From Rozella allomycis CSF55 (Eukaryota), in NCBI GenBank assembly GCA_000442015.1, contig KE561074.1:1-60658 (forward strand): 60,658 nucleotides of DNA. The letters are read 5' to 3'. This document shows, one piece after another, positions 3,541 to 58,350 of the stretch. The notes below the pieces were generated by a model. The model saw only the letters and a list, made by a program, of their open reading frames with translations, ran no database searches and had not been told where the DNA came from. The number at the start of each line of letters is the position of its first letter. Position 1 is the stretch's first letter. The position numbers and the translations under genes are program-made.

Positions 3541-5334
3541 TTACAAAGAAAATAACGTGACTAAAATCATAATCACATGCAGTCCGAGTAAAGAATACAT
3601 AAATCTTCTAGTGTGTTTTAAGCCTAAAAGGTAAGGTATTAAAGGCATGAACGAAAATGTATGGAAAAGCCAAGTAACTAATAATGGTGCCATAAATAAA
3701 AAAGGCATTGTGAACACACGCTGAAGAGTAATTGCCATATCAATAAGAGCAACACACGTCAAAGAGTAGGACATCAAGGTATAGCTTTCTAATGGCGACA
3801 CGTGGTAGATTTTAGGCATAAAGTAGAACAGAGTACCAGAAAACAACGCGATATTAAAGTTGCAAGTCAAATATACGAGACCATTTTCAATTAATAAATT
3901 TGTTGCCATTGATATAATTGCAGAAAATGTAAGAAGTGCAGCAATTACAGCGCTTTCATGATCATTCCAAGAGATCTCTTCTTTAATCTTTTTGCTTCTA
4001 TATATTTCTATGCAAAGTTTTATAAAAAGAACAAAGAGAATCATTCCGACAAACGATCCCCAATGATATGTCCATGTAACTTTATGACCAATTGTGGCAT
4101 TCACTGCACTGTAACTGTGGATGTTGAACAGAAAAGTTGATAAAAGGGAGAAGATGGGGAAAAGTACGCACAACGTAAGATAAATTATGTACTTTCCAAA
4201 GCCAAACTTTGTTTTCTTCCATAATACACCCACCAAAGATAAAGACAGGCACCCGAAAACCAAGGCAAGTGTGGTTTTCACTTCAACAGCATATACTGCA
4301 GCAGTATCACCTAGAAAATCATAATATGTTAAATTCTTCGGATCGCTTTCATTTGATACAGTGCCTTCTTCAAATATCAAATGCTTAGTAAACTTGTAAA
4401 CATTAGAACCCATATGTTGAACAGAACCGGAAGAAATATTTTCTAGAGAGTCATTCTCAGTATGATAATGAATTCTTCCTTCGTAAAATGCGATATCTAC
4501 GCACTCTCTAGCCTCCCATGTGGATCCCATCTTTCCCATCTTGGCCGCATAAACTTCGTAATCGGTGTAACTTCCAAGCCTTTGCATAACAATTTCACCA
4601 AAAATATTCATATGTGGATACGGAGCAACCTGAGCATATGCAGCGGCCATACTAAATGAGTTTGTACGGAAAAGAATGGCCCGTCCTCCAGTACCACCCC
4701 CTTCTAAATTAATTACTCTAGTGACTCTTTCGTAAACTGTCTGATTCACCATCCATTTAGATCCTCGGAGTCCAATCTCTTCTCCGTTATTTAAGAATAT
4801 CATCAATGACTTTTTTGGCTTTTTCCCACCACGAATGACTTTGCGCATAACTTCAAGAGCCACAGTAACTCCTGCCCCATTATCACTAGCGCCGAAGGAT
4901 TTCTCAACGGAGTCATAATGCGCAGATATCATTATAGTATCTTTGGTTTGTCCTTCTAGCAATCCAAAAATTTGTCCAGGTATTTCACTTTCATCTTCAT
5001 TATCTGGGGTGAGCTTAGGCTGCTTATTATACATAACTGTCATTGAAAGCCCAAGTTTCTTAGCTTCACTAGAAAGGTGTAGCAACTTTTCTTGGATAAA
5101 AAGAAACACGGCCAAGTTATGTTCACTACCGACATGGTGAAAGTCGGAAGCGATAAATTTTAGATCTTCATATGCGAGAATACCGGAAAACTCATCGTTC
5201 ATATCAGCTTCTTCTTTAGAAAGGGCCGTAGGAAGTCGGTCTCTTAAACAAACAACAAGTGCAAAAATAAATCCCAAAAACAGAGCCAGAATTAAATGTG
5301 CCCTATATTTTTTAACCTCCACTTGGATTGTCAT
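3541..5334 (-). CDS. M28-family multi-pass membrane metallopeptidase (ERMP1/Pff1-like), intronless
   Basis: SAHYDS, GASDNGAG, NNGEEIGLRGS, INLEGGG and YHT zinc-ligand motifs; one N-terminal TM plus a C-terminal TM bundle; ATG at 5334. Confidence 0.9.
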   Translation of the reverse strand: MTIQVEVKKYRAHLILALFLGFIFALVVCLRDRLPTALSKEEADMNDEFSGILAYEDLKFIASDFHHVGSEHNLAVFLFIQEKLLHLSSEAKKLGLSMTVMYNKQPKLTPDNEDESEIPGQIFGLLEGQTKDTIMISAHYDSVEKSFGASDNGAGVTVALEVMRKVIRGGKKPKKSLMIFLNNGEEIGLRGSKWMVNQTVYERVTRVINLEGGGTGGRAILFRTNSFSMAAAYAQVAPYPHMNIFGEIVMQRLGSYTDYEVYAAKMGKMGSTWEARECVDIAFYEGRIHYHTENDSLENISSGSVQHMGSNVYKFTKHLIFEEGTVSNESDPKNLTYYDFLGDTAAVYAVEVKTTLALVFGCLSLSLVGVLWKKTKFGFGKYIIYLTLCVLFPIFSLLSTFLFNIHSYSAVNATIGHKVTWTYHWGSFVGMILFVLFIKLCIEIYRSKKIKEEISWNDHESAVIAALLTFSAIISMATNLLIENGLVYLTCNFNIALFSGTLFYFMPKIYHVSPLESYTLMSYSLTCVALIDMAITLQRVFTMPFLFMAPLLVTWLFHTFSFMPLIPYLLGLKHTRRFMYSLLGLHVIMILVTLFSL

Positions 5335-5574
5335 GGAAAAGTTTTGACAAAAAAGTATAAGCCAAGACCAGGGTGCCACAATACGTCTATATATAGTAGC
5401 AAAATTTTCTAAATAGAAAATAGAATAATTTTTCGTCGAATAGGTGATCAAACATACCAGTCACCACTACCAGACTTCCCATAATAGTAGCATTAATAAG
5501 CATTCATCCCTGATCCCTTTTCTCAGTTTTTTTGCCAAAATTAAGAAAACAATATCTTTTAAAAAGGTGGTAAT

Positions 5575-7008: not shown

Positions 7009-7725
7009 TTAGCTAGTTTCAACATAAATCTCCATCTATTTGTTCACACTAGTCAAATTTACTTTAAAATTTTCAGTATTTAATGTCTTTATAGGCAATA
7101 TTTTCTGATTGCCATTATTCCCAGGTATATGATTTTCATCTGCCAAAACCCACTTCATCAATAAAATCAAGCACACATACCGACTGATTTGAGCTAGAAA
7201 CCTGCGTACTATCGTCATCATCAACTTCAACCGCCACACAAAACGTGATATCTTTGTAATCAATCAAGTACACCTACTTTGATCTTTCAAAGACGGCAAC
7301 ATTGAATCGCAAGTCCCGAGTTTCACCAAAAACGATCTAAAATACGCATCAATATCATCAACTTCATCGAGAAGCCTATTACAAACCATAAATAAGCTCT
7401 ACCCGTGGATCTGAAACACGAATTTTTCAATCGGCGTGTTGGTGTCTTGGTCTAAAACTACTAGAACCAATTTCCGCAGCTTGGAATCGTGTAGCCATGG
7501 CTCAAGAGCTAGCAGAATTGATAAAACGTATTGGTTTAGCTCTGGATGTCGGCTCATGTATACTGGAACCTATTTTTGATACTGGTTGACTTTACGTGAT
7601 ATTTTTTTCGTTTCTGAAATAGATCTGTGTTTGGATAAATTTATTTGGTTACTTTGTGGATATATTTGACGAACGTATAGCAGTGTATGAATAACTGTTT
7701 CGAAAAAATCGTTGAGCCAGTGCAT
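7009..7725 (-). CDS. REV7: HORMA-domain DNA polymerase zeta accessory subunit Rev7/MAD2L2, multi-intron
   Basis: Manual splicing gives MHWLNDFFETVIHTLLYVRQIYPQ|NLFQKRKKYH|VPVYMSRHPELNQYV...PIEKFVF...LPIKTLNTENFK|MEIYVETS*. The LYxRxIYP, VPVxMSRHPEL and ExFVF motifs are characteristic of Rev7. Confidence 0.85.
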
Positions 7726-8039
7726 TAGTAAATTCGAAAATTAAATGTTCAAATGAGTAGATATGAAACATATTTAATGTAAACCTATGAACTATCAACA
7801 ATTTAACATTTATCAATATATTGACTTTTCAATCTTCCAAGCCGATTGAAATCGCCATCTCAAATTTTCCACATAATCATTAGCGTAACATGTATAACAA
7901 CAAGTCCACAACCAGCAGAAGCCACCAACAATTTCCAAAATTCAAGAAAAATTGTGGCGCCAACTAAAGTGTGACGTATGATCGACCCCTGCATTCCCGA
8001 CAACTATAAAGCGTGGACCCTGGCGCAACAAACAAAAAA

Positions 8040-10717
8040 ATGAGCGAGTAAGCGACCGTATGAAAGACAATTAGCGTGACCTTGCGGCGTTGGATGATGA
8101 ATTCGTATTCACGCGAGTGTATAGTTCTGCTTGACGAGCAGGCGAGCAATGAATCAGAGCTGTGCGAGTATATTGTGCGTAAGCATTCTGGCTCGAAGCT
8201 GTATGATGTGAACCGGGCGGGTGATGGATATGGTAAGGGGATGGGGAGTATATTGTAGAAATGCGCGTTGGTTGTGACCGTGGGATACTGAGTGCTGATC
8301 GGGAGATTGTGGATATGAAGAGTATTATGAATGATGTTGGAGCGCAGGAGGTGCATATGGTGGATGGCAGGGCGTTTCCGATGGTTGAGATTGTTACTGT
8401 GGAGGATAGGAGGGATAGGATGCATGATAGTCCGTTTGGATTTGAATATAGGTTTGAGAGTCCGTTTGAGGCAAAGGAGGTGGAGAAGAAGGAGAGATGT
8501 GAGTTGGAAAAGTATGTGGTGAGTGATGGGAGCAGATGGATTTGCTTGAAGATGAATTGCAGAGGCGGAGAAGGGATGAATGGAGTGGAGTATGTAAAGG
8601 TAAGATGTTAGATGGATTTGAATAGAAATTGCTGGTGCATTTGAAGGATGAGATTAAGGGGATGATATTGGATTTTATGAATGATGGATATATGATAGTT
8701 GTTATGTATAATAAGCATGTTGCGAGTTCAGTGCAGAGTTATATAAGAGGGGTGATTAGTCACCGGATCCCTGTATTAAATCAGAGTAAGTAAATATGGG
8801 AAAAAAGAAGTAGACTGTGATCAAATGATACAAGGCTGTTTTATGGTAGAAAAAGAGGGAATAATTAGAGTAATTAATAGATAGACGAGTGATAGGAGTA
8901 TGGAGGCCATCCCCGAGAGTATGTTAGCTGGGAGGGAGACAAGTATGACGACTATGGCGAGAGGAGGGAGATATTGATAACGCTGAATCCAATGTGTAAG
9001 AAGCGAGCGACGTTGGAGCGAATAGAGGTAAGAGTGGTGGGATGGCAACGTGGTAGTCAAGCGTTGACATTTTGCAAGGCCGAATATATTCGCCACTTTG
9101 CAGGAATAGTAGCAGTTACAAGAGAGAAATATTTGTTAGTAGTAAATATACCTTGCAAGTGAGAATGACGTTTGATGATGAAAGAGCGGCGCAGTTACAA
9201 AAAAGCATGTTGGAAAAAGAAGAGTTTTCTGTAAGAGTTTATGTGAAATAATAAATAGGATGCGATAGTTAAAGTAGAATTTGAAGAGAATTTGATAGAT
9301 TTGAAGAGAGAAGAGGAAGGAGTTGTAAAAGAAGTTGTAGTGGGCGTTGAACCAGTACAAGTGCAAGTTGAACAGACGCAAGTACAAGTTGAACATTTTG
9401 AGAATGAAAATGAAAGTTTTAAATTTAAAAGAGATTTTGATTTCAAAGAAGGATTGTTTGAAGAAAGATTCAAAGGATTAGAAATAAATGAAGAGCCATT
9501 TTTGTTATTTAAAAGTGACAATTCAGCGTCACTGATTTCACTTCAGAAAGCAAAGAAAGAATCCAAGAATCAATACAATGATATTTTGAATAGAGAAGAA
9601 ATGAATCTTTTAAATCACATTCCAACTTGTTTCCATTCATCATTCCATTTAGAAGAAAATTCATCTTTTACTGATAGTGATGTTTGGTCTAAAAGTCCAA
9701 AGAAGGAAGAAGATTTGATTTTTCTTGATGATTCTCTAGTTAAAAGTTTTGAAAAAATTATGGATGATGAAGAAGAAATTTCTTATGCTAAAAAAGTTAA
9801 AGAAAACATAAAAAAGCAAGAAGCCTCATTCAATTCAACAATTGGTTCAACAATAGGTACAATGAATTCTGCGATGAGTTCTAACACAAATCCACTAAGT
9901 TCTCACCACTTAACTTCTACTAGTCATTCTGCTACCTCACTGTCGCCTACTTTGAATAATAATTTAGAAACTTCTTGTTCAAATTTTAAATCTTTTCAAG
10001 AATTTAGTCCATTTAATGATTCAATGATTTATTCACCTCCAAAACAATTTAAATCTTCTAATAAATATAAACAACCCAATGAAGTAGATTTATGGTCTAT
10101 TGAAAAGGGAATTGACACTAGAACTACTTGCATGATCAGAAACATTCCAAACAAATACACCCAAGTACAAATTATATTCTCTTTTAATTAAAGCAAATGT
10201 TGATTGAATTTATAAATGAAACCCATGCTAAAACTTATGATTTTCTATATCTCAGAATGGACTTTAAAAATAGATGCAACGTTGGTTATGCATTTATTAA
10301 TTTTATAGATCCAAAGTATTTTTTCATTTTATTTTTTATTTTTTAGATTTATAGTTTCATTTGCAGACCGAGTGTGTGGCAAGAAATGGACTAAATTCAA
10401 CAGCGACAAAATTTGTTCTCTTTCTTATGCAAACATTCAAGGAAAAAATTCTTTAATTGAAAAATTCAGAAACTCAAAGTATTTTATTCTCTTTTCTTTC
10501 ATCAAGTGTAATGGAAGAAGAACCTTCTTACAGGCCAAAGATCTTCTATTCATCTGGGCCCATGCAAGGCCTCGAAGAACCTTTTCCCCTTCCCAACAAC
10601 AATAGAAATAGGCAACAATTCTCGCCTAGATTCAAAGATAACACACTAGGTTTTGATCCTTTTGCGATGGATTCTACTCTACCATGTTGGTTCAACAAGA
10701 GTAGAAAGAAGCACTGA
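8040..10717 (+). CDS. mei2: Mei2-like RNA-binding protein (C-terminal Mei2-type RRM3; divergent N-terminal half), about 10 tiny introns
   Basis: [28 protein letters not shown]...[23 protein letters not shown] is the Mei2 RRM3 signature. An open frame can be traced from ATG 8040 through successive 26-29 nt GT-AG introns into the 9292 ORF. Confidence 0.85.
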
Positions 10718-10844
10718 TTTTGGTTTACATGTTAATAAAGTCCTCTTTTAAAAAGTTATTCTTTTTGATTTTAATTCTAATTGAACTATTTAAATCAATA
10801 ATTCTAAATCTAAGTCAATAATTTTAAATCTTTCGAATTCTCCG

Positions 10845-13431
10845 ATGGATTATTCGGTAAAGTTTTCTTTCGATTTCAAATGCTCAATAGAATCAAGTAA
10901 GAATTAACTCACATCACATTCAAAGTTGCTTCAAAAAATCCAGACATTGAAAAATGGTTAAACAATGAAACTGGCCAACCAAAAAATGAGTTTGCCGAAC
11001 GATTATCAAAGCTATCAACCAAAGCAGACATTCAACCAATCCCATTCCAATGCTACTTTACATACCACATCGGCGACACAATCATCGGCAGAGTAACACA
11101 CACATTTCTCATTAATAGTCCGACGTCATGTCCTTCAAAGACTCTACCTGCATATGCCACCACAACATTCAAATCACCAAAGTAATCACTATTCTCCTCC
11201 TCCAAAGGATTTCCTCTCATCCCTCTACAAAAACAACATCACCATCAAAATATGGCAAATAGCACCCTCGAGACACATCAACACTACAAAACCATCCAAC
11301 CCAGACAAGCGCGCCAAATCACCCAAAAAACACACAACAAACAAAGACGTCCACGACATTGAAGACCACTACATGCATCCCCACCAATACGAAGCATCCA
11401 AACACTCGTCCGTCAAAAAATCACTCTTAAAAACATCACAATCACACCCAGAATCATCCATCAAGCGATGCAACTCGGCACCACGCNNNNNNNNNNNNNN
11501 NNNNNNNNNNNNNNNNNNNNNNNNNNNNNNNNNNNNNNNNNNNNNNNNNNNNNNNNNNNNNNNNNNNNNNNNNNNNNNNNNNNNNNNNNNNNNNNNNNNN
11601 NNNNNNNNNNNNNNNNNNNNNNNNNNNNNNNNNNNNNNNNNNNNNNNNNNNNNNNNNNNNNNNNNNNNNNNNNNNNNNNNNNNNNNNNNNNNNNNNNNNN
11701 NNNNNNNNNNNNNNNNNNNNNNNNNNNNNNNNNNNNNNNNNNNNNNNNNNNNNNNNNNNNNNNNNNNNNNNNNNNNNGTGATCAACCGCAAGCTGATGTT
11801 CACACAGCCGTTCATGCTCAATGCCGCGAGACGCAATATCCGCAACGGGAAACTTGTGCGCGAAGACCATATTTATGTCGGGAGCGTGGTTATGGATGTT
11901 AATCCGCTGTTTGGAGGATGCTTGGTGGTGGTTAAACAGTACGAGGTTTTTTAGCGTTGGGTAGGTGGATTGGGCTGGGAATTGCCGGGCTGCTAGAAGT
12001 GGAGGCGGCTGTTATGGTTGACAGAAAGATTGTTCATGAAGCGGTTTGGGATGAGTTTGAGCCGGTAGCGATTGAGATTGATAAATTGATTGATATGCCG
12101 AGGGATATGGAGGAGAATGTGTCGATTAAGTATAATTTTAATGGAGAAAGTGTGGAATTGAATGATCTTAAAGTGAAGAAGAATATGAGAATTAAATACA
12201 TTAGATATTTTGTCTCCAAATGCGCGGATGATTTCATTGATTCTGTACGGCATCCGTTTGTCGTATTCATAAGTGATGGGTTGCATAAAGCTCAAGCTAA
12301 GGTTGGTAATTTCTTTGTACTATTTGGAAAGACTTGATCAAGGATGTCATTATAGCTGGTAACTCTAAGATACATGTCCCTCTGCTACCAATCGAGGATA
12401 ATAAATCAAGTAAAAACAAAAACGACAATTAAGAGTCAAAAGAGAATTTTTAGAGTCAGGAACGACTATCAGTATCAAATTTCATTTCCCTGGGAGAATA
12501 ACAAGCGCTATTTCACCACATCTTGGAATTGGCTCGCAGGAAGGGTTCAGAATTTTGATTAAAACTTCCAAGTAATAATATGAAGTGATTATAAGAGAAA
12601 AAATGATCTCAAAAGGTTTTATGGAGAATNTGTTATTGAGAGAAGATAAGGACATTAGAGGGATATGCGTCTATTCGTCTTTTGGAAACTTATTGGTCTT
12701 AGAGTGTATCGATAGTGAAGCATTAGAGGAAATGGCAAGGTAAAAGAGTCTAACAAATATTTGATTAGGAAACACAATTTCGAAATCGCTAAGAGCAAAG
12801 TCTCTCTGAGACCAAATCCATATCTCCTTAATGCATACCACCTTAAGCATAAGGGAGCTTTAAGTTATAATGCGCTACTGAAAATGTNAGGGTACTTTAA
12901 GTTATAATGCGATGCTGAAAATGTCTAGCAGAAGCGGTCCATCCGGTATTGCGCGGGATACTTTGTGGACAGTAAATATCAATTGTTCTTTGCTTAGTTC
13001 CTCCTCAATGACAAAATTGAACCCCCAAATGCTAAATATTTTCTATTGCAACGAATGTGTGTGGTCGAGTTGAAGCAGTACCTACAATCCGTCAAGGATT
13101 GGTTTCAAGTAACGAGACTTGTCCAACTGTAAAGAACATTGCTGTTCACAATGGTTTACCGGTTGTTAATATATCAAAACCGAGCTCTTCAAAGTCTATA
13201 AAGAAGATGGAGACCTGCAAAACACAAGATTTGCTTTCTTTACCTCCATTCACATCATATTCAACAAAGCCTAATACTAGTTATTCCTATTCCTTGTCCG
13301 TTCCAAAAACTTCTCACTCCCATTTTAGACACAATATTATTCGAGGAGATAGCTCAACAGCGGGTATATATAATTATAGCATTCAAACGTTTAATACTGT
13401 CTATAGTCAAAAATTAATTATAAAATCCTAA
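10845..13431 (+). CDS. CFAP92/KIAA1257 (DUF4550)-like ciliary protein, multi-intron, spans the N gap
   Basis: Traced spliced frame includes HNIQITK|DFLSSLYKNNITIKIWQ, EFEPVAIEIDKLIDMP, REFLESGTTISIKF, DIRGICV..LLVLEC and IYNYSIQTFN. These resemble CFAP92 motifs from memory; not database-confirmed. The ends are uncertain. Confidence 0.55.
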
Positions 13432-20081: not shown

Positions 20082-20131
20082 AATAAAAAAACGCTGAATC
20101 CTTTTTAAAATTTTTGAAAAAAATGCAAAAG

Positions 20132-20217
20132 TCCGTCCACCCGGAATTGAACCAGGGACATCATGATAACAATTGAACAACTACAGTCACGCGCTCTACC
20201 AACTGAGCTATGGACGG
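20132..20217 (-). tRNA. tRNA-Tyr(GTA) with 13-nt intron (20168-20180)
   Basis: Reverse complement CCGTCCATAGCTCAGTTGGTAGAGCGCGTGACTGTAG[TTGTTCAATTGTT]ATCATGATGTCCCTGGTTCAATTCCGGGTGGACGGA forms a cloverleaf with the intron at the canonical 37/38 position, followed by a T-run. Confidence 0.95.
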
Positions 20218-24498: not shown

Positions 24499-24572
24499 CG
24501 ATCCTGGCACGACTCGAACGTGCAATCGCCTGATCCGTAGTCAGGCGCCTTATCCAATTTGGCCACAGGACC
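24499..24572 (-). tRNA. tRNA-Arg(ACG)
   Basis: Reverse complement GGTCCTGTGGCCAAATTGGATAAGGCGCCTGACTACGGATCAGGCGATTGCACGTTCGAGTCGTGCCAGGATCG, followed by a T6 Pol III terminator. Confidence 0.95.
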
Positions 24573-24893: not shown

Positions 24894-27326
24894 ATGGATT
24901 CCTTTAAGAATGTAGTTTCCAAAGTAATAAAACACAAGATCAAAAATAGGTATCAAATACATTATACCTAAAAGACGAAGACGACGCCGACGAGCTCCAA
25001 AAAATGCAAGCCAAATACACTGGTAAAACGAATGTTAATAAATGTTGATAGAGCTAGCGAAAGCATACAAGAAGCTTCGAATGGAGCGCAGCAAGTTGGA
25101 CGAGATAGTGAAGCAAAACACTCCGCTTCCGGACTACCAATTGGAAGATTTGGAGACGTATTTGAAGGGGATCCATGAGCGCGATAGTTTGACCAAGCAG
25201 GAGATGCAGAAGATTATATTGGAGAATAAGGAGCTGAATACTAGTACGCATGGTAAATTGATGGGTGAGAGTTGAGATGAGATTTGGCTGAGCAAGTGAA
25301 TATTTTGGAGAGGCAGAATGAGGAGCTGTTGCAGAAAATGAATGTAAAGTTGAATGGACAGAATCTGGGTAGAGATTTTGTTGAAAATGGAAATGAGAGT
25401 GGGGATACAGTTGATGAGACATCTAAACTAAAGTTGAAGTTGGAAGAAGAAAGAGTTTCTGTAGAAAAGCTAAGCAAAGTTGTATTGGAGTTGGAGAAGA
25501 GAAATAAAGAGCAAGAAGAAATGTTAAAGGCAAAAGATGATGAATTGAATGGCTTCAAAGAAACGCTTTCAAAAATAGAACAAGAGAAAAATTCAAAAGA
25601 AAAAGAAATGCAAGAATTGATTGATGAAAACGAAAGTAAAATAAAATACCTTGAATCAGAATTGAATGAAACTAGAGAAAAGAATTTGAATTTATTAAAT
25701 TTGGAAAAAGAAAAATGTGAACATTTGGAGAGATTGATAAAAGAGAGAGAATTGGAGATTGAAGAATTGAATAAAAAGAATTTTGGATCTATGGCAGATC
25801 TACAAGCCACTCCAAAGCCCGGGAGAGAAAAAGGCAAAGGGAAATTGAAAAAGATGATTGAAGAGAAAGATCAACAAATTGCTGAATTGATTGAAAAGAT
25901 TTCAAAATTTGAAACAGAAAACAAGAATGATTCAAATGAAGAATTTAAAGAGATGGCAGAGAAATCAAGAAGTTTAGAAAATCAATTGCAGAAAGTTACA
26001 AAAGAATCAATTGAAAGAATAGCACAGTTGAATGATTCATTAAATCAAATAAAGACGTTAGAAGCATTATTAAAGGAAAAGGAAGAAGAGATTGAAACGA
26101 TTAAATTGAACAATTCAAATGAACTTTCAGACATGGAAAAAGTTTATTTGAAAGAAAAGAATAATTTTAATCAAATAATAAATGATTTAGAAAGACAAAT
26201 AAAAGATAAAGAACTTTTAATTGAATCTTCAAATTCTTCTTTAGAATCCTTAAAAGTTAAATACGATGAAGTAATCAAAAGGCTAAGAGAAGCCAAAGTT
26301 GCTATTAAAAATTTAGAAGATGAAAAGAAAAAATTAACTGAAATAAATTTATCAGAAAAAAACAAATATTCTTCTTTTGATGAAGAATTTAATAAATTAA
26401 AAAAGGAATGTTTAGAAAATGAAGAAAAATTAAAGAATAGAATTCTGGAAATTTCTCAATTAGAGAAAACGATTTCAGAGAGAAATTTAGAAACAAATAA
26501 ATTGATTGAAGAAAATATTAAACTTAAAAAAGAAAAAGAAGAAACTAAAATACAAATTGAAAAGAAAACTGACGACTTTAATAGATTTTCAATTCAGTTT
26601 GATAAACAAAGTCAAGAGATTATTAAACTGCAAGATCAACTACAAAACATTCACATTGAAAATAATGAATTAAAAATAAAAATTGAAGATGAAAAACTCT
26701 TCCATCTCAGTAAAAATGCTGAATTAATAAATGAAAATGAATTTAAATTGAAAGAATTAAATGATCGCCTAAAATCTAAAGAAAAAGAATTTGAATCTTT
26801 TGATAAAGAAATTAAAAATCTAAATCAAGAAAATTCAGAATTAAAATCTCAATTAAAAGAATTAAAAGAAAGAAATTCAAGCGCTGAACGAAATCTTCAA
26901 AAGTTAATCAAAGAACAAGTAAAATTTATTCAAACTCTTCAAAGGAATCTGAAATTGAAATCAAAACAAAATATCTAAAAGAAAAAATTGAATCTCTAAA
27001 TAAAACCCTGGTAGATCAAATTGAAAATGAAAAAATTAAAGAAGAAAATTTTCGCTCTTTAAATAAAGTAAAATAAAATCTTTAATTTAAAAAGACTTTG
27101 CAGGATGAAGTTAGAAAACTTGAAAGGCAACTAGAAAAGAATCAAAATTTGCAAGTCAAAGTAGATGAGAATACAAATATTGATTACATGAAATCGGTTT
27201 TTCTTTCTTACATTAAAAACAAAGATCAACGAGTAAACATTTATTTCATTTCTCAAATAGAAACATTTAATACCGGTCCTTTCTACTCTATTAAACGTCT
27301 CTTCAAGTGACTTGACAATAAAATAA
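24894..27326 (+). CDS. GRIP-domain golgin (Imh1-like), long coiled coil, multi-intron
   Basis: N-terminal LAKAYKKL...VKQNTPL, about 600 aa of E/K-rich heptads, and C-terminal NIDYMKSVFLSYI...R|KHLIPVLSTLL (GRIP with conserved Tyr). Confidence 0.8.
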
Positions 27327-27635
27327 AGTATTTAATATTAAATTTTATCTTAATGTCTTTCTTCCGTTGTAACAACTTCTAATGTTTCGGCCTTCATATT
27401 CATCCAAAGACCCAAGGGGCTCCGGCTGAATCCTGTGAGAATCTCTGAAAGCTTAGGTTCGCCCATTTGATATGAAAAGTTTAGATTGTTAAATGTTCAT
27501 TGCTATATGGAAAAAGAAAGACGAGATAGGAATTTCATTTTAAGAGGCTGCTAAACATCAAGTGTGACTGGTTTACAAAATATTCATCACATCTTTTAGT
27601 TTTAAACTAAAAAAAATCATGACAGTGATAAAAAA

Positions 27636-27717
27636 TAGTGAGAGTGGGGTTCGAACCCACGCCTCCGAAGAGATAAGGACTTGAGCCATACGCCTTAGAC
27701 CGCTCGGCCATCTCACC
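27636..27717 (-). tRNA. tRNA-Leu(CAA), long variable arm, no intron
   Basis: Reverse complement GGTGAGATGGCCGAGCGGTCTAAGGCGTATGGCTCAAGTCCTTATCTCTTCGGAGGCGTGGGTTCGAACCCCACTCTCACTA, followed by a T-run; one T-T mismatch in the anticodon stem. Confidence 0.9.
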
Positions 27718-28180
27718 ATGTACAACATCAAAGCGTGAAACCTTTTGACAGCTTCAACTCTTGCATTCCTTGATTTCACAGGGAACAAGTCTCACAATTA
27801 TTAAGTAAACATATACTTTTGTAGCTTATCCAACCCACCACACGAATGGAATCTTTAGTTGACCTCTCAACAGCGAGTGAAATACCGCAAGAAACATTTG
27901 CAGCAAGACAGCAGATTCCCTTGAGTATTCCTTTGTCATTTGTGAAGGTTGGAGGTCAATGTCATTTAGCTCCTGCTCTAAAAGAAGCAATCATCATCGG
28001 ACCGAAAGTCACTCGTTACACCACGAATTAATTTCGTTAGCATTTACCCCTTTTTCTGAATTGTTTGCAGAAGTTTTAATTGTGTTCATGACGTAAGTTT
28101 TTGATGTGAAAATAACGATATTTCATATTGGGTTATTTCGAAAATGGAAATTTTAGTATAGAAATATCTTTATTTATATT

Positions 28181-40731: not shown

Positions 40732-41090
40732 CTAATAAGCAAAACCACCAAGTTGTTTAGTCTATATATACCACCTAAATATATTACTTTGGCTTCAATC
40801 ATATCACCATCTTCCAATCCAAGAGATTCTGGCGTCGCGTCTTTTTCGATTTCATCACCATCAAACATGAATCTAACAGAGGTTGAATTCTTTCCGGTTT
40901 TATCACAAAAGGAATCCATAATTTTTCTCATAGCAGTAGTCTTTTTGACCTTGAACGCTAGTTCTGAACCATCCTAAATAAACCTTTTCAACAAGTTTTA
41001 CACTTGCTTTGACACTATAATATGGAAAAAATATTTTTACGTTAGTTTGATCAAGTCTGGTTTGTTTTCTTCTGCACCGAGTTCACCCAT
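40732..41090 (-). CDS. SUMO (Smt3-like) ubiquitin-like modifier; introns 41015-41040, 40974-41001, 40762-40787; 13-nt microexon
   Basis: Spliced: IKLT|VKAS|DGSELAFKVKKTTAMRKIMDSFC...VRFMFDG...TPESLGLEDGDMIEAK|TKQLGGFAY*. Confidence 0.9.
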
Positions 41091-41274: not shown

Positions 41275-42758
41275 ATGCAGTTCTGGGGACTTCAAGTTGA
41301 GCCAACCAAATTATATTCACAAACTGTTGATGCATCATACAAGGTGACTATGGTAAGCTAGATTTTGTAGTTTTAGTAGGCCGCTATAGACCCATCAGCT
41401 AAAGATGGAGAAAAGGTCGTTTTGAAGGTCCGTGTGAACAATGATATGGAGTTTGTATTGTGTACTCTTGTTGCTGGACGTGTAAGAATATATGTGTGTT
41501 AATATATAAGCTTAACCAACAAATTATGGACCACGCGTTTACGATGGGAGAGGATGTTGTATTTTTCACTGCTGGAAAGAGCGCTATTCACTTGACTGGA
41601 TACTATCTTGAAGAAGACATTGATGAAATGGAAGAGGAGTTGTCTGAAGAGGATATGACAGATTCTGAGGAAGAAGTGTCTGAAGAGGAAGTTGAAGACT
41701 TGAAGAAGGATGCTGAAGCTAAGATTGTAGAATTGAAGGAAGAGCCAAAAGTAGAAAGCCCAGTGAAGGATTCTGCACACGCCAGTGAGACTGAAGTTGT
41801 TAAGGGAGATGTTGAGATGGAAGCTAAAGATGAAGAATCATCTGATGAAGAAAGCGACGAAGAGGCTGAAATGACAAAAGAAGAAGTTATTTCTTTATTG
41901 AAGCAACAAGGACATTCAGAAAAGGAAATTGAAGAAATGTTGAATGGCGAAGATGACGACAGTGAAGAAGAAGATGAAGACAGCGAAGGTGAAGAAATGA
42001 CCAAAGAGCAATTCGTTGAATTGTTGAAAGCTGAAGGAAAGACTGATGAAGAGATTGAAGAAATCTTAGCTGAAGAGGAAGACGAAGATGAAGAATTTGA
42101 ACAAATTGTTGAATCTTTGAAGAAGGAAGGATACAGTGATGAACAAATCCAAGAAATGCTTGAACAAATGGCTGATGATGATGAAGTTGATTCTGATGAA
42201 GAAATCAAAGAAAATTCAAAGCGTCAAAAGAAACAAGACGAAAAGCCAAACAAGAAGCAAAAGGTTGAAGAAACTCCAAAGAAGGAAAAGAAGAATGAAA
42301 AGAAAGTAAATGAAACCCCAAAGCCTGCTGAAAAGAAAGTCACTGAAACTCCAAAGAAGGCTGCTGAAAAGAAAGTAGCTGAAACTCCAAAGAAAGTCGC
42401 AGAGACCCCAAAGAAAGAGTCAAACAAAAAGACTCTTGCAAATGGACTCGTAATTGAAGATAGAAAGGTTGGAGATGGAAAGAAAGCTTCAAAGAACAAC
42501 AAGGTTGCTGTCCGCTACGTTGGAAAACTTTCAAATGGAAAAGTTTTTGATTCAAACACCAAAGGAAGACCATTTGAATTCGTTCTTGGAAAAGGTCAAG
42601 TCATTAAAGGATGGGATCTCGGTATTGAAGGAATGGCAATCGGCGGTGAAAGAAGATTGGTCATCCCAGCTCCATTAGCTTATGGCAAACAAGGCGCTGG
42701 TGATATCCCAAAGAATGCAACCCTCACTTTCGATGTTAAACTTTTGGCCATTAAATAA
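41275..42758 (+). CDS. Nucleoplasmin-like FKBP peptidyl-prolyl isomerase (Fpr3/Fpr4 type)
   Basis: N-terminal [10 protein letters not shown]...IHLTGYY nucleoplasmin-like domain, acidic and ETPKK repeats, C-terminal FKBP ([27 protein letters not shown]); 2 introns. Confidence 0.95.
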
Positions 42759-46126: not shown

Positions 46127-46521
46127 TGGCCCTAACTAGGCTCGGTGAACATGTTTTTTGATAAATAAACATTAATTTATTACACTTAATACCTAATATT
46201 GCTACATTTATTGAGATCATCACAAATTGTGGCAAAGGAATGTTTTTCGTTAATCATTTACTTTCAACTAAATTTACGCATTGTTTCAGATGTATATTTT
46301 CCGATGAAGTTGTGTACTTGAACATCCCACTTAAAGTTAATCTTTCTTTATAAAAATTAAGCAGCAAAATTTATCCTAGAATTACACAATATGGAATGGC
46401 CAACAAGATAAATTGATCAATATATTTTGGGCTGGAACAGGCGGGTCGGCACGTGGCACGCACGATGTCCAATTAAGCCAACCGTTTTAAGGAATTTTGA
46501 GCCACCAATTTATTATTAATC

Positions 46522-48342
46522 ATGAAAACGGTTTATCCAATCAAAGAAAACATTAAGCTGCATAGACACTTAACTTTGTTAGCAGTTTATGTGGGATTTT
46601 TGTACCTTTTCATTGTGCTTTTCCGAGACAGAATGCCAGCAGCATTGTCAAAGCAAGAAGCCGATGCTACCAATGACTTTTCAGGTCAATTGGCGTATGA
46701 AGATTTGAAATTCATTGCTTCGGAATTCCATCCTGTTGGTAGTTTACATAATTACAATATCGGCAAATTCATTCACGAAAGATTGTTGTCAATTCAAAAC
46801 GATGCTTTAAAATCTGGATTGTCCATTTCAATATTTGAAAATCTAAGTTACGATGCGTCAAAGGAAGAAGACTTGTTGACGAATGTAGAAAGCCCAGGTC
46901 AGATTTACGCGGTATTGGAGGGCGAGTCGAAACAAATTTTAATGATCTCTGCGCACTATGACTCTGTGCGGAATTCATATGGTGCAAGTGACAATGGCGC
47001 TGGTGTTACAGTGGCTCTAGAAATTCTACGTAAGCTGGTTGCAAAAGGAAAGAAGCCTTTAAGCTCAATTATGTTTTTCTTAAATAATGGTGAGGAAATT
47101 AGACTTAATGGTTCTAAATGGATGCTGAAGCAGAAAATATACAATAGAGTCACAAAGGTGATTAATCTTGAGGGAGGTGGTACTGGTGGTCGATCTATTT
47201 TGTTTAGATCTAACAGTTATTCTATGATAGCTGCATATGCCAAGGTAGCCCCATTTCCACACATGAATGTTGCGGGAGAAAAGTTGATGCGGTTGCTTGG
47301 TAGTTCTACTGATTATGATGTTTACGTTGGGAATGTTGGTAATGCTATTTATGTTCCCGATGTTGTCGATGTTGCTTTTTACGAAGGTCGAATTCATTAC
47401 CACACTGAAAATGATTCATTGGATAACATTGGCCCTGAGTCTGTTCAACATATGGGATCGAACGTTTATAAATTTGTAGAGCATCTGGCTTACAGTGGAA
47501 AGTACGAAAAAAGTGTGAGTGAACCTAATGAGATTACATTTTTTGACATTTTAGGGTCAAGTGCAACTGTATACTCCACCAACGTTCAAAGAATAATTTC
47601 GTTAACAATAGGCGGAGTTTCATTTGTTGTTGCGTATTTCATATGGAAAAGAAGACAAATATCTTTAAAGTTATTTTTGAGGTGTTTATCTATTTGCATT
47701 TCGTTTCCATTTGTTGGTATTATAGTGTCTTTTATATTTAATTTTCACAGCTTTCTTATAGCAATGTTTGCAAGTGAAGGATACAAAGTGACTTGGACGT
47801 ATCATTGGGGTACCTTTATTGGATTGTTGGTTTGTTTGATGATTGCTAAAATGTTGCATGAAATTAAGAATATCCAAAAAGAAACGACTGAATTGAATAT
47901 CGAAAGCTATCAGAAAGGATTAATTGTTGCCATTCTTGTTTTTACTTCCATTTTGTCAATTCTTACAAATTTAATCCCAGGATCTGGATCGACACAATCA
48001 TTCACTAATTTTAACATTGCCATCCTCATTGGAACTATTTTGTATTTGATTCCATTTCAAGATCAGTATTTCTTTTCTCCTCTAATCTTGTACACTATTG
48101 CATGCTATTCATTATCAAGCGTTATTTTAATTGATAGCTGCATCATGCTGCAAAGAGTTACAACAATGAGGAAAATGTTTTTATTACCATTTTTGTTCAC
48201 ATCTCTTTTACATTCTTTGTCATTTCTATCTTTGATACCTTTTGTAATCGAGTTTGAATTTAAGAGTCTCAAAAAATCACTAATCTTTATTGCTTTTGTC
48301 CATTTCATCTTTATCATTGTGGCCATTTCACTAGGTGTATAA
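46522..48342 (+). CDS. M28-family membrane metallopeptidase, paralog of 3541-5334, intronless
   Basis: Same motifs (SAHYDS, GASDNGAG, NNGEE, INLEGGGTGGR, IHYHTENDSL, KVTWTYHWG), collinear with copy 1. Confidence 0.9.
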   Translation: MKTVYPIKENIKLHRHLTLLAVYVGFLYLFIVLFRDRMPAALSKQEADATNDFSGQLAYEDLKFIASEFHPVGSLHNYNIGKFIHERLLSIQNDALKSGLSISIFENLSYDASKEEDLLTNVESPGQIYAVLEGESKQILMISAHYDSVRNSYGASDNGAGVTVALEILRKLVAKGKKPLSSIMFFLNNGEEIRLNGSKWMLKQKIYNRVTKVINLEGGGTGGRSILFRSNSYSMIAAYAKVAPFPHMNVAGEKLMRLLGSSTDYDVYVGNVGNAIYVPDVVDVAFYEGRIHYHTENDSLDNIGPESVQHMGSNVYKFVEHLAYSGKYEKSVSEPNEITFFDILGSSATVYSTNVQRIISLTIGGVSFVVAYFIWKRRQISLKLFLRCLSICISFPFVGIIVSFIFNFHSFLIAMFASEGYKVTWTYHWGTFIGLLVCLMIAKMLHEIKNIQKETTELNIESYQKGLIVAILVFTSILSILTNLIPGSGSTQSFTNFNIAILIGTILYLIPFQDQYFFSPLILYTIACYSLSSVILIDSCIMLQRVTTMRKMFLLPFLFTSLLHSLSFLSLIPFVIEFEFKSLKKSLIFIAFVHFIFIIVAISLGV

Positions 48343-52315: not shown

Positions 52316-53129
52316 TTATTGAAACTTTGACACTTACTTGCGTTTTTGATTTCGTTTAGCTTTTCAGATATTGTATATCCATCATCTTCACCGAGCTTTT
52401 GAATCCACTTTGGCTCTTTCCATAGATAGTATTGGCCAAACGGAATAAGTTCTCCGTCATCATCTTCCATTTTCTGTTCAAACAGTTCCTTCAAGTCTTC
52501 TTGCTCGTCTTTGTTCAACCAATTTTGAAACTCGTTCTTTTGATGTTCGGATGGCAGGATTGCAGGCTTAAAATCAACATCCATCACTACTTGGGCAGAA
52601 CCTATTTATTATTCAAACTTTGATACTTACTTGCTTTTTTGATTTCGTGTAGCCTCCCAAATACAGTGCCTGCAGTAGCGATATCATTCAACATATCCTT
52701 CCATGTGTCTTTATCCCATAGACAGTATTGGCTAAACGGAATAAGTTCTCCGTCATCATCTTTTATTTTCTCTTCAAACAGTTCCTTCAAGTCTTCTTGC
52801 TCTTCTTTGTTCAACCAATTTTGAAACTCGTTCTTTTGATGTTCTGTCATGTCNGATAGTATTGGCCAAACGGAATAAGTTCTCCGTCATCATCTTCCAT
52901 TTTCTGTTCAAACAGTTCCTTCAAGTCTTCTTGCTCGTCTTTGTTCAACCAATTTTGAAACTCGTTCTTTTGATGTTCTGTCATGTCAGTGGACAAAGCC
53001 ATCGAAAAAAGGTTTGTAATGGTAGCAACGAACCTAATTGTATCAAAAATGAAAAAACATTAATTAATACTAGAAAGCCGTTAATTTTGATCCAGTGAGA
53101 AGAACATATTGCGTTGTCATAACAATCTG

Positions 53130-56100: not shown

Positions 56101-56162
56101 CCAGCCATCCAGATCTAAAATCTATCAGGGGCTCATCAACAAATCTAAAAATATCAAAATAA
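53130..56162 (+). CDS. ~1010-aa protein: disordered N-terminus plus degenerate NRPS condensation-like domain with a coiled-coil insertion, intronless
   Basis: YPLSVFQQYFF, PILRTEF, SSLIADQRS, AFWRSVL, KFLIG, LVGPFTSVIPVKID, FYPLDVL, YDMKL and LQYRKDVI occur in condensation-domain order. Confidence 0.65.
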   Translation: MQKPSIKEIILLRHQESIHETETALTNSKVADRFYVRNPTPTLPSIKRNFHTSNLQRSKDTRLSNSRPSNTSFSVPELSKAPKIDRIDEWIELNKPPEVSQPAKERASVTKKKTEKSQRLPSAASVASNISGGSSKAFNKSRLNTPAIKSQAPSRSETSMSFQINTISKPIVKRQTPVPQEVSKPKEKEYSRVERIEEESVIDSSLELSNAEVKPEGQVVHDSILELTETLPIIEYLNEEEEPGPYLKYPLSVFQQYFFAKQKSLEDFSKFYVHQGHVLNTKSVNIEKIEKICQVIVLCIPILRTEFSNVSVDDVDVQPQVVKSTIFEKVVRTTLWRDELPVELDEFKNIVQQVVEFDEEKSTSRDELNETFVTAEMFYKKTDKFVCKSNPSIELFKVFVYPIDDQANCEKYLMSVVLSSLIADQRSCSWLSQTIVGLVEHFRDKEEPSFHDLINEIKSRIGNGGTALEYFKDEESKVKPLSVAIAFWRSVLVDSLKDNIADLAYVKISLKNLEKKFDNLKHLRDAAQKRMNQLQHSLKECIEQRKKFDIFTMDLISEEEIDDKYKIELMKVMLKEEYGNENLIDVLIGQGISRDVIAILRLNEDSLLAFSQIKEENLTVKMLTKEKKKLLAIAAFLRNRFRICLEEQSRIKFEVERKISKLKRELSKISDSYSKLQHDLEITEDTIIKYNNLMNPPLLDFEIPEARFDYTGNMANNFRNLNSDWSLTDLTTSIRKTHEWLSFPIRHKIGSEIRRFVKDWFIVKGIQDKHKDSTKKSMEDIFINSGEQVNLFETCLINSFGILIRHIIGNEKFLIGVEKRSPPTATLVGPFTSVIPVKIDFSDRDITFHESFSEIFSQLKRGSFHHFYPLDVLRKELAMNLDLNIRFSYVSPSDCEVWKLQGKSPEEMISVLSASHVWTFDSSNDYDMKLTIFDNIENLTAILQYRKDVISDKDVSRWVDKFLSILESIESSHKKLKVTSVVSRFYHTAFTSHPDLKSIRGSSTNLKISK

Positions 56163-58276: not shown

Positions 58277-58350
58277 GGTCCTGTGGCCAAATTGGATAAG
58301 GCGCCTGACTACGGATCAGGCGATTGCACGTTCGAGTCGTGCCAGGATCG
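58277..58350 (+). tRNA. tRNA-Arg(ACG), identical to the copy at 24499-24572
   Basis: GGTCCTGTGGCC...CTGACTACGGATCAG...GTTCGAGTC...CAGGATCG followed by TTTTT. Confidence 0.95.

What the first reader, a model, noticed from the sequence alone, without database searches (positions are those of the whole stretch)
7850..12350. Sharp, gene-independent strand-skew switches (C/A-rich to G/T-rich) forming a kb-scale N-shaped domain
Seen: the + strand is C/A-rich at ~7860-8040 and flips to extremely G-rich/C-poor from 8040 to ~9400. It decays through an AT-rich trough, becomes extremely C/A-rich at ~10900-11486, then flips again to G/T-rich after the gap (11778-12300). Both genes involved are on the + strand, and the second flip lies inside one gene. 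Introns follow the skew: gtaaggggatggggagtatattgtag and gtaagagtggtgggatggcaacgtggtag in Mei2; gtaacacacacatttctcattaatag and gtaatcactattctcctcctccaaag left of the gap; gtacgaggttttttagcgttgggtag right of it. Codon usage and transcription direction therefore do not explain it. Established: a C/A-to-G/T switch is the polarity expected at a fixed bidirectional replication origin. Inference: strong fixed origins, or another focal strand-asymmetric mutation process, only ~3.5 kb apart, which may also drive the divergence of the Mei2 N-terminus.
Basis: partly seen in the sequence, partly recalled or inferred. Interest (0 to 1): 0.75.

Follow-up and report, generated by a model that had tools for sequence, protein, structure and literature searches.

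The report
Extreme local strand skew in Rozella
Two neighbouring genes of the parasitic fungus Rozella allomycis carry kilobase stretches in which one DNA strand has almost lost two of its four letters, even at silent sites, which points to a very strong, locally anchored one-strand mutation pressure rather than to replication origins.

Summary
The window is a whole 60,658-base Rozella allomycis CSF55 contig. Block A (about 8034-9400) is G-rich and C-poor, block B (10900 to about 11846, gap included) is C/A-rich, and block C (about 11850-12300) is G/T-rich. Contigs of three other runs bridge the N gap, so it is not a mis-join. The skew holds at four-fold sites (A: G37/C9; B: G3/C27 and T4/A30; C: G22/C4; control G263/C253) and in mini-introns. 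The blocks are not repeats, inverted copies, RIP products or G-quadruplex tracts.

The flips lie at 8033 and 11846. The first is 23-28 bases after a TATAAA and 64 bases before the Mei2-like start codon. The second is about 40 bases before the annotated start of O9G_003096, inside an open frame that probably continues from a plus-strand gene in block B.

Both flips run C-rich to G-rich along the direction of transcription, the polarity already described for unicellular fungal genes, but far stronger here. Arms are short (0.17-1.3 kb) and unequal, which fits replicons poorly.

Best reading, confidence about 0.4: node-anchored, transcription-linked deamination-type pressure (A to G, C to T on the strand leading away from the node). 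Origins or recombination hotspots are not excluded.

The parts
7860..8033 (.). Short left arm of node 1. The plus strand is C/A-rich and the segment is promoter or upstream DNA of the Mei2-like gene.
   Evidence: Composition at 7850-8040 is A .39, C .27, G .15, T .19, with GC skew -0.29. Part of it, 7757-7910, is skipped or replaced in contigs of X2 and X5 (table 5).
8005..8010 (+). TATAAA box, 23-28 bases upstream of flip 1.
   Evidence: Read directly from the sequence. That it functions as a promoter element is inferred.
8033..8070 (.). Node 1: flip from C/A-rich to G-rich, within a zone of 47-50% GC and high CpG.
   Evidence: The cumulative G-C minimum is at 8033 and the keto-amino minimum at 8070. 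CpG o/e is 1.36-1.48 at 8000-8299, against 0.78 for the window.
8097..10717 (+). Mei2-like gene (EPZ33098.1, 709 aa) with 25-31-base mini-introns. Only the C-terminal RRM_2 domain is recognisable.
   Evidence: Searches give the identity. One search gives the exon map. PF04059 scores E 1.8e-45 at residues 541-637, and there is no RRM_1 hit up to E 5.
8034..9400 (+). Block A: G-rich, C-poor right arm of node 1. It covers the 5' UTR, exons 1-5 and their mini-introns.
   Evidence: Codon position 3 is A .16, C .08, G .43, T .33, against A .35, C .13, G .12, T .40 in the 3' exons. Four-fold sites are A19, C9, G37, T17. Mini-intron interiors hold G 33 and C 3 of 91 letters.
9400..10900 (.). AT-rich trough between the blocks: the Mei2 3' half, its 3' end and an intergenic spacer.
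   Evidence: GC is 0.25-0.30. Four-fold GC is 0.18 in the Mei2 3' exons, against 0.31 in control ORFs.
10845..11486 (+). Plus-strand coding region in block B. The model has its ATG at 10845 and introns at 10897-10925, 11093-11118 and 11182-11207, and it runs open into the gap.
   Evidence: The ATG-started spliced ORF is 187 codons. 1 of 400 dinucleotide shuffles reach that length. The minus strand gives 55 codons, P 0.34. Skew is strongest at position 3 (C .44, T .09, G .07). No deposited protein was retrieved for it.
10900..11846 (.). Block B: C/A-rich left arm of node 2. It includes the gap and the first about 70 bases after it.
   Evidence: GC skew is -0.52 to -0.63 and AT skew reaches +0.54. 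Four-fold sites in the plus-strand model are A30, C27, G3, T4. Intron interiors hold G 1 and C 21 of 69 letters.
11487..11777 (.). Assembly gap of 291 N. Its real length in other assemblies is 264 bases.
   Evidence: Contigs of X1, X2 and X5 join 11486 to 11778 with 264 letters between (table 5). Those letters were not shown to me.
11846..11853 (.). Node 2: flip from C-rich to G-rich, inside a GC-rich open frame about 40 bases upstream of the annotated ATG at 11892.
   Evidence: One search places the flip. In the ORF 11778-11891, position-3 GC is .71 against .31 at position 2. Four-fold sites there are A1, C7, G8, T2.
11854..12300 (+). Block C: G/T-rich right arm of node 2, covering the first exons of O9G_003096.
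   Evidence: Position 3 is A .17, C .08, G .37, T .37. Four-fold sites are A7, C4, G22, T12.
11892..13132 (+). Annotated hypothetical protein O9G_003096 (EPZ33100.1, 327 aa). It has no Pfam family and no relatives were found.
   Evidence: Searches give the identity, another the exon map, and one search shows 0 Pfam families.

Best explanation
Blocks A, B and C are products of a strong, local, strand-asymmetric transition pressure anchored at two GC- and CpG-rich nodes (about 8033 and about 11850).

On each side of a node, the strand that runs 5' to 3' away from the node has gained G at the expense of A, and T at the expense of C. These are the changes that deamination of A and C gives on exposed single-stranded DNA.

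I think the nodes are sites of divergent transcription initiation. Node 1 would be the Mei2 promoter. Node 2 would be a promoter-like site at or inside the 5' part of O9G_003096. The affected strand would then be the non-template strand of each diverging transcript.

On this reading the locus is an extreme local case of the transcription-linked C-to-G skew switch already described for unicellular fungal genes. The pressure acted on weakly constrained, lineage-specific coding sequence, dragged amino-acid composition with it, and erased the N-terminal RRMs of the Mei2 protein.

Shown: the composition, its presence at neutral sites, the node positions and the soundness of the assembly. Inferred: the mutational direction, the link to transcription, and antisense transcription across block B.
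For: Neutral sites.
- Skew at four-fold sites and in introns flips sign between B and C.
- B and C fit transitions only. Control four-fold fractions are A .33, C .15, G .16, T .37. B has A .47, C .42, G .05, T .06.
- First and second codon positions and amino-acid usage shift the same way but less. Gly, Val, Glu, Arg and Met are up in A. His, Thr, Pro and Lys are up in B. This is what mutation pressure under purifying selection looks like.

Link to transcription.
- Node 1 is 23-28 bases after TATAAA and 64 bases before the ATG.
- Node 2 is about 40 bases before the annotated ATG.
- Both switches run C to G in the direction of transcription, as published for fungi, where the skew also reaches four-fold sites, promoters and amino-acid usage (PMC3315797: abstract, Results part 1, Discussion; PMC555766: abstract).
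- In two further plus-strand genes of the window, the share of G among purine-ending codons decays 5' to 3'. It falls from .65 to .03 in ORF 25281-26975 and from .59 to .14 in ORF 41445-42755.

Arms and other checks.
- Arms are short and unequal, and they end at AT-rich spacers or inside genes.
- Independent assemblies carry the same sequence.
- There are no repeats or inverted copies.
Against: - Block B is coding on the plus strand, so its own transcription predicts the opposite skew. The model needs dominant antisense transcription across B, for which I have no evidence. No RNA run holds the locus.
- I saw no TATA box upstream of node 2.
- In blocks A and C the gain of G at four-fold sites exceeds the loss of A, and T is also low. 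Transitions alone do not explain them.
- The effect is not general. 21 other long ORFs of the window have mean sense-strand skew of +0.02 to +0.20 with no flip.
- G runs are under-represented (19 runs of at least 3 G against 29.9 +/- 4.0 in shuffles for A). That does not favour classical G-cluster R-loop initiation.
- Differences between strains are not raised in A and are lowest in B: 0-2 other letters per 317-653 bases (table 8). A high ongoing mutation rate is therefore not visible.
Confidence: 0.4

Rival explanations
1. The nodes are fixed, efficient bidirectional replication origins. On each side the lagging-strand template is exposed and deaminated, or polymerase error spectra differ between strands. 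The result is C/A-rich DNA left of the origin and G/T-rich DNA right of it.
For: The polarity is correct at both nodes. The skew is present at neutral sites and flips where the coding strand does not change. The arms of node 2 are roughly comparable, at least 0.95 kb against 0.45 kb.
Against: The arms return to baseline within 0.2-1.5 kb instead of running to a terminus. At node 1 they are very unequal, 0.17 against 1.3 kb. Two origins 3.8 kb apart would be unusually dense (established knowledge of yeast origin spacing, recalled). Node 1 coincides with a predicted transcription start. No shared motif was found at the nodes; only scattered 7-mers are shared. There is no long-range trend in skew across the 60 kb.
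Confidence: 0.08
2. The nodes are recombination-initiation hotspots, as is usual at fungal promoters. GC-biased repair raises GC around them. Errors of the repair synthesis that refills resected strands (G misinserted opposite T) give A to G on the strand running 5' to 3' away from the break.
For: Four-fold GC peaks at the nodes and falls away.83 in the node-2 ORF.47-.58 in the arms.18 in the Mei2 3' exons, against .31 in controls. Arm lengths of 0.2-1.3 kb are in the range of meiotic resection tracts (recalled from the yeast literature, not checked here). The polarity fits a resynthesis-error model.
Against: GC-biased conversion itself is strand-symmetric. Damage to the exposed 3' overhang would give the opposite polarity. 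I know of no precedent for skew of this size at hotspots. Nothing here shows that recombination occurs.
Confidence: 0.15
3. Selection on the transcript or on nucleotide supply. Examples are avoidance of C in transcripts when CTP is scarce (the adaptive idea of PMC3315797), or selection for RNA that cannot fold. A/C-only and G/A-rich RNA pairs poorly.
For: 57 of 64 four-fold sites in B are A or C, and an RNA of A and C cannot base-pair. Block A RNA is C-poor. Rozella is an intracellular parasite that depends on host nucleotides (recalled).
Against: B is C-rich in the sense strand, so C-avoidance fails there. The skew extends into the promoter arm (7860-8033) and into introns. Only a few genes show it. 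Kilobase-scale selection at every silent site is implausible.
Confidence: 0.1
4. History rather than process. Block B was once the G-rich 5' part of a minus-strand gene diverging from node 2, or is an inverted segment. Its stop-poor C/A-rich antisense strand was later recruited as coding sequence.
For: The C/A-rich strand of such blocks is intrinsically open. The non-coding minus strand of block A carries frames of 185, 170 and 114 codons, with 20 stops against 33.1 +/- 4.5 expected. B plus has 12 stops against 26.4 +/- 3.9 expected. The B product has no relatives: 4 low-complexity hits only among 1.84 billion representatives.
Against: In the plus frame of B the skew is strongest at position 3, and G is enriched at position 1, as expected if the pressure acted on an existing plus-strand gene. 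Three canonical 26-29-base introns keep the frame. The minus strand has no credible gene.
Confidence: 0.07

Closest known systems
Intragenic GC-skew switch of unicellular fungi (McLean & Tirosh 2011, PMC3315797) and the TSS-centred C>G skew of plants and some fungi (Fujimori et al. 2005, PMC555766)
   Same: The coding strand is C-biased at the promoter or 5' end and G-biased further along. The skew reaches four-fold sites, promoters and amino-acid usage, and it is attributed to transcription-linked mutation.
   Different: The published effect is a genome-wide average of modest size that rises towards the 3' end. Here it is confined to a few genes, forms sharp blocks with |GC skew| of 0.5-0.84, is strongest near the node, and fades towards the 3' end of Mei2. 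21 other ORFs of the same contig do not show it.
Transcription-associated mutational asymmetry and GC-skewed, R-loop-forming CpG-island promoters of mammals (recalled; PMC2927911 seen as a search listing and abstract start only)
   Same: There is an excess of G+T on the non-template strand, a 5'-localised component within 1-2 kb of the start, a GC- and CpG-rich node, and sign reversal at bidirectional promoters.
   Different: The amplitude here is several-fold larger. G runs are depleted rather than clustered and there is no G4 motif. One arm (B) lies on the sense strand of a coding gene.
Replication-associated skew jumps (bacterial origins; upward jumps of human N-domains; recalled)
   Same: The polarity of the jump is the same (C/A-rich to G/T-rich), and two jumps give an N-shaped profile.
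   Different: The scale is 1 kb rather than tens of kb to Mb. The arms are unequal and return to baseline. One jump sits on a predicted transcription start.
Strand-coordinated hypermutation: RIP in Pezizomycotina, APOBEC kataegis, ADAR hyper-editing, somatic hypermutation (recalled)
   Same: These give kilobase tracts in which one strand carries one class of transition, with sharp borders. Somatic hypermutation also starts near the transcription start, spans 1-2 kb and has an A-over-T strand bias.
   Different: RIP and APOBEC lower GC and need duplicates or TpC context. Here GC is raised, there are no duplicates, and the RIP indices are ordinary. ADAR needs an RNA intermediate and is not known in fungi. 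No elevated present-day diversity is seen in A or B.

Membership tests
Replication-origin skew jump | Polarity: the plus strand switches from C/A-rich to G/T-rich at the site | tested here: met
   Cumulative G-C minima lie at 8033 and 11846.
Replication-origin skew jump | Skew persists over the replicon on both sides, with roughly symmetric arms | tested here: not met
   Arms are 0.17 vs 1.3 kb at node 1 and at least 0.95 vs 0.45 kb at node 2. Baseline is regained within 1.5 kb, and there is no long-range trend over 60 kb.
Replication-origin skew jump | Independence from transcription units | tested here: inconclusive
   Node 1 is 23-28 bases after TATAAA and 64 bases before the ATG. Node 2 is about 40 bases before an annotated ATG, but probably inside a longer ORF.
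Replication-origin skew jump | Demonstrated initiation of replication | not testable with these tools
   No replication data are available.
Transcription-linked GC skew of fungal genes (PMC3315797) | Coding strand C-biased at the promoter or 5' end, G-biased downstream | tested here: met
   In Mei2 the promoter arm has skew -0.29 and the gene then reaches +0.84. In the second gene the 5' 1 kb has skew about -0.6, followed by +0.65.
Transcription-linked GC skew of fungal genes (PMC3315797) | Present at four-fold sites and outside coding sequence; shifts amino-acid usage | tested here: met
   One search covers four-fold sites, searches cover introns and the promoter arm, and one search covers amino acids.
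Transcription-linked GC skew of fungal genes (PMC3315797) | A general property of the genome's genes | tested here: not met
   21 other long ORFs have mean sense-strand skew of +0.02 to +0.20 with no 5'-to-3' sign change. Only this one contig could be examined.
Transcription-linked GC skew of fungal genes (PMC3315797) | Association with transcription or expression level | not testable with these tools
   No RNA run holding the locus was listed.
R-loop-type GC-skewed CpG-island promoter | GC- and CpG-rich node with a G-rich non-template strand downstream | tested here: met
   GC is .47-.51 and CpG o/e is 1.25-1.48 at both nodes, against 0.78 for the window.
R-loop-type GC-skewed CpG-island promoter | G clusters or G4 motifs that seed R-loops | tested here: not met
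   Runs of at least 3 G number 19 against 29.9 +/- 4.0 in shuffles for A. They are also below expectation in B(-) and C. No G4 motif occurs in the window.
RIP (repeat-induced point mutation) | C-to-T in duplicated DNA, loss of GC, high TpA/ApT and low (CpA+TpG)/(ApC+GpT) | tested here: not met
   There are no duplicates. GC is raised to .40-.50. The indices are 0.41-0.75 and 1.34-1.51, like the window's 0.71 and 1.39.
ADAR-type or polymerase-eta-type A-to-G hypermutation | A-to-G on one strand, disfavoured after a 5' G | tested here: inconclusive
   The share of G among purine-ending codons in A is .81.72 and .79 after A, C and T, but .48 after G (control .31.26.52 and .36). The all-site context is less clear. 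The direction of change is inferred from composition only.
Mei2 family (for the gene that carries block A) | C-terminal RRM_2 (PF04059) | tested here: met
   E 1.8e-45 at residues 541-637. The domain is 73% identical to metagenomic relatives.
Mei2 family (for the gene that carries block A) | N-terminal RRM_1 domains | tested here: not met
   P0001 has no RRM_1 hit up to E 5. The relative L002 has RRM_1 at E 1.4e-10. BLASTP finds no N-terminal similarity.

The most novel reading that the evidence does not exclude
Rozella has a node-anchored, bidirectional, deamination-type hypermutation process. It would be a natural counterpart of somatic hypermutation or kataegis, possibly self-reinforcing because each A-to-G change on the displaced strand favours further strand exposure. 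It drives selected kilobase tracts to near-saturation: 57 of 64 silent sites in block B are A or C. In doing so it rewrites proteins, erasing the RRM1-2 region of Mei2, and opens stop-free antisense frames from which orphan coding sequence can arise.
Probability: 0.15. Interest if true: 0.75.

Novelty: new variant of a known kind. Interest (0 to 1): 0.5.

Why it matters
Local strand asymmetry is normally a weak statistical signal that needs thousands of genes to detect. Here it is strong enough to read by eye in single genes. It is saturated at silent sites and visibly reshapes two proteins.

If the blocks mark transcription starts, they give a sequence-only marker of strong or bidirectional promoters in a parasite that cannot be cultured without its host. 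They also give a natural system for measuring how far transcription-linked damage can drive protein divergence.

If they mark origins or recombination hotspots instead, they would be the sharpest sequence footprints of such sites known in a eukaryote.

Either way, the finding explains why the N-terminus of this Mei2 homologue and the neighbouring gene look like orphans.

Tried and rejected
Tools that gave no answer:
- RNA evidence: no RNA holder was listed among 15 runs, so neither the strand nor the level of transcription is known.

Explanations tested and rejected:
- Repeats or a mobile element. There are no direct, inverted or tandem repeats among the blocks.
- Inverted duplication or a long hairpin between arms. 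Cofold and duplex energies lie within -1.5 to +1.1 sd of arms shuffled separately.
- A shared motif at the switch points. Only chance 7-mers are shared among four nodes.
- A known RNA family. None lies in 7800-12400. The only matches in the window are four tRNA genes elsewhere.
- G-quadruplex or G-cluster tracts and RIP. Both rejected.
- A minus-strand protein gene in block B. The best ATG-started spliced ORF is 55 codons, P 0.34.

Searches that found nothing useful:
- Homologues of the block products. The block A exon found only the organism's own protein among 56 candidates. The block C exon found only its own protein among 193 candidates. Block B exon 3 gave 4 low-complexity hits and no self hit in 1.84 billion representatives. 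Block B exons 1-2 read through gave 0 hits in the 46-149 aa range.
- As a result the deposited protein EPZ33099.1, which lies between the two named ones by accession, was not retrieved. Whether block B is annotated stays open.
- The Atlas search with the block A exon gave no usable hit.
- A simple codon-periodicity score gave no signal for block B on either strand. The later position-specific counts with corrected exon borders did.
- Bacterial-type promoter and terminator scan: uninformative.

Literature. 'Rozella allomycis' together with 'GC skew' gave 5 papers, all about mitochondrial genomes. I found no report of this nuclear feature. Supplementary files were not opened.

Full report
**What the window is.** A block A exon translates to a protein 97% identical to 'RNA recognition motif 2 domain-containing protein [Rozella allomycis CSF55]' (P0001, EPZ33098.1, 709 aa). 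Its only contig is 60,658 bases long, the length of this window. The gene to the right is 'hypothetical protein O9G_003096' (P0002, EPZ33100.1, 327 aa). The code is standard. Genes are densely packed and carry mini-introns of 25-31 bases.

**The observation.** It is correct and far beyond chance.
- GC skew in 200-base windows reaches +0.84 in block A, -0.63 in block B and +0.65 in block C.
- Counts: G 191 / C 31 at 8240-8760; C 183 / G 62 with A 231 / T 111 at 10900-11486; G 157 / C 71 at 11778-12300.
- The sd of skew in 300-base windows over the contig is 0.20. Of 20 windows beyond |0.45|, 13 lie here.
- By cumulative G-C minima the flips are at 8033 and 11846. The second therefore lies about 70 bases right of the gap, not in it.

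**Not an artefact.**
- Contigs from runs X1, X2 and X5 join 11486 to 11778 with 264 letters between.
- X6 contigs run unbroken through 7264-8451 and 8422-11011.
- The pieces differ from the window by 0-3%.

**Not explained by codon usage.** Mapping P0001 gives exons 8097-8231, 8258-8599, 8626-8736, 8816-8869, 8896-9027, 9259-9414, 9436-10164, 10194-10316, 10348-10476 and 10508-10714.

Third codon positions:

| Region | A | C | G | T |
|---|---|---|---|---|
| Block A exons | .16 | .08 | .43 | .33 |
| Mei2 3' exons | .35 | .13 | .12 | .40 |

Four-fold sites:

| Region | A | C | G | T |
|---|---|---|---|---|
| Control ORFs | 551 | 253 | 263 | 620 |
| Block A | 19 | 9 | 37 | 17 |
| Block B (plus-strand model) | 30 | 27 | 3 | 4 |
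| ORF 11778-11891 | 1 | 7 | 8 | 2 |
| Block C | 7 | 4 | 22 | 12 |

Mini-intron interiors follow the same pattern: G 33 / C 3 of 91 letters in A, and G 1 / C 21 of 69 letters in B. First and second positions and amino-acid usage move the same way, but less. This is the picture of directional mutation pressure on weakly constrained protein.

B and C fit transitions alone: T to C and G to A on the plus strand in B, and the complementary changes in C. In A and C the G gain exceeds the A loss, so something more is involved there.

**Which strand codes in block B?** This decides whether skew simply follows the sense strand.
- A plus-strand model starts at ATG 10845. It uses the only three GTA...AG candidates of 24-31 bases (10897-10925, 11093-11118, 11182-11207) and gives 187 open codons running into the gap.
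- 1 of 400 dinucleotide shuffles reach that length. The minus strand gives 55 codons, P 0.34.
- In the plus frame the skew is strongest at position 3 (C .44, T .09, G .07) and G is enriched at position 1.

So block B is a plus-strand coding region with a C/A-rich sense strand.

A caution applies to frame length as evidence. The C/A-rich strand of such blocks is open by composition alone, and the non-coding minus strand of block A has frames of 185, 170 and 114 codons.

I could not retrieve a deposited protein for B, although by accession one protein lies between the two named ones.

**One gene or two across the gap?** This is not settled. For one gene:
- The frame is open on both sides, and a 264-base gap keeps it in register (a one-in-three chance).
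- 11778-11891 looks coding, with position-3 GC .71 against position-2 GC .31.
- Neither flank of the gap is AT-rich like the spacers at 7600-7850 and 10720-10880.

Against: the deposited model starts at ATG 11892.

**What the blocks are not.**
- Repeats or inverted copies.
- Arms of a hairpin. Energies are within -1.5 to +1.1 sd of arms shuffled separately.
- RIP products. GC is raised and the indices are ordinary.
- G4 or G-cluster tracts. G runs are under-represented and there is no G4 motif.
- Known RNA genes.

No motif is shared by the switch points.

**Anatomy of the nodes.** Both flips lie in zones of 47-51% GC with CpG o/e of 1.25-1.48, against 0.78 for the window.
- Node 1 is 23-28 bases downstream of a TATAAA (8005-8010) and 64 bases upstream of the Mei2 ATG.
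- Node 2 is about 40 bases upstream of the annotated ATG of O9G_003096.

Four-fold GC peaks at node 2 (.83), is .47-.58 in the arms, and falls to .18 in the Mei2 3' exons (control .31).

Arms are short and unequal: 0.17 and about 1.3 kb at node 1, and at least 0.95 and about 0.45 kb at node 2.

Two other plus-strand genes show a weaker form of the right arm. The share of G among purine-ending codons decays from .65 to .03 in ORF 25281-26975 and from .59 to .14 in ORF 41445-42755. In the remaining ORFs no such pattern is seen. 21 ORFs have mean sense skew of +0.02 to +0.20.

**Interpretation.** On each side of a node the strand that runs 5' to 3' away from it has become G/T-rich. Three node-centred processes predict that polarity:
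- divergent transcription, through the exposed non-template strand;
- a bidirectional origin, through the exposed lagging-strand template;
- resynthesis errors after resection at a break hotspot.

Damage to the 3' overhang at a break predicts the opposite polarity.

I favour transcription for four reasons. Node 1 sits on a predicted start. The arms are short, unequal, and end at spacers or inside genes. Both switches run C to G along the direction of transcription, the pattern published for unicellular fungi, where it also reaches four-fold sites, promoters and amino-acid usage (PMC3315797: abstract, Results part 1 and Discussion read; PMC555766: abstract read). And origins 3.8 kb apart with kilobase-limited footprints have no precedent that I know of.

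The weak points are real. Block B needs dominant antisense transcription, which I cannot show. No TATA box precedes node 2. Most genes of the contig lack the effect. Present-day diversity is not raised in A and is lowest in B (table 8). Hence confidence is about 0.4.

**The Mei2 N-terminus.** Seven metagenomic loci encode relatives of the C-terminal RRM at 40-75% identity. None shows a run of three or more 200-base windows with |skew| of at least 0.45. One relative (L002) keeps an N-terminal RRM_1 (E 1.4e-10). P0001 has none up to E 5, and BLASTP finds no N-terminal similarity. This is consistent with the compositional drive having erased the domain signal, but it does not prove it.

**Novelty.** Searches for the organism together with GC skew returned only mitochondrial papers. 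Searches gave no report of this nuclear feature, and supplements were not seen. I class it as a new, extreme variant of a known kind: transcription-linked strand asymmetry in fungal genes.

Noticed in passing
window 7757-7910: Contigs of X2 and X5 skip 154 bases here. Contigs of X1, X2 and X5 all start at 7911, with X1 showing an unmatched 25-letter end, while an X6 contig runs through. This suggests a structural polymorphism or haplotype bubble just upstream of the Mei2 promoter, overlapping the short C/A-rich arm.
   Followed up: no
window 9826-9909: A hypervariable Ser/Thr-rich stretch inside the Mei2 gene. A 12-base insertion and many single-base differences and indels are seen in all four runs (tables 3 and 4).
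   Followed up: no
window 12852-12924: A 36-37-base tandem duplication (89% identical copies). It is present as a single copy in contigs of X1, X2 and X5, which skip 37 bases. It lies inside the annotated O9G_003096 gene.
   Followed up: no
window 9028-9258 and 9415-9435: The deposited Mei2 model removes 231 bases. That stretch holds open frames with an RRM-like 'LLVVNIP' stretch and keeps the G-rich skew. The model also makes a 21-base skip inside a continuous ORF. The model may be wrong here.
   Followed up: partly
window 40780-40960 (-): A small minus-strand gene whose product reads like SUMO/Smt3 (my reading of the sequence, not tested against Pfam). It explains the C-rich plus strand upstream of the FKBP gene.
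   Followed up: no
window 3541-5460 (-) and 46501-48342 (+): Two M28-peptidase paralogues lie on the same contig (E 1e-32 and 3.9e-33). An ORF of 1023 aa with an NRPS-type condensation domain lies at 53091-56162.
   Followed up: no
window 24499-24572 (-) and 58277-58350 (+): Two tRNA-Arg(ACG) genes have identical Rfam scores. There is a tRNA-Leu(CAA) at 27635-27718 and a tRNA with an unresolved anticodon, probably intron-bearing, at 20131-20217.
   Followed up: no
window 8097-9027 (-) and 10900-11486 (+): The C/A-rich strand of each skewed block is strongly depleted in stop codons: 20 against 33.1 +/- 4.5 expected, and 12 against 26.4 +/- 3.9 expected. It therefore carries long frames whether or not it codes. 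This is a trap for gene finders and a possible source of new ORFs.
   Followed up: partly
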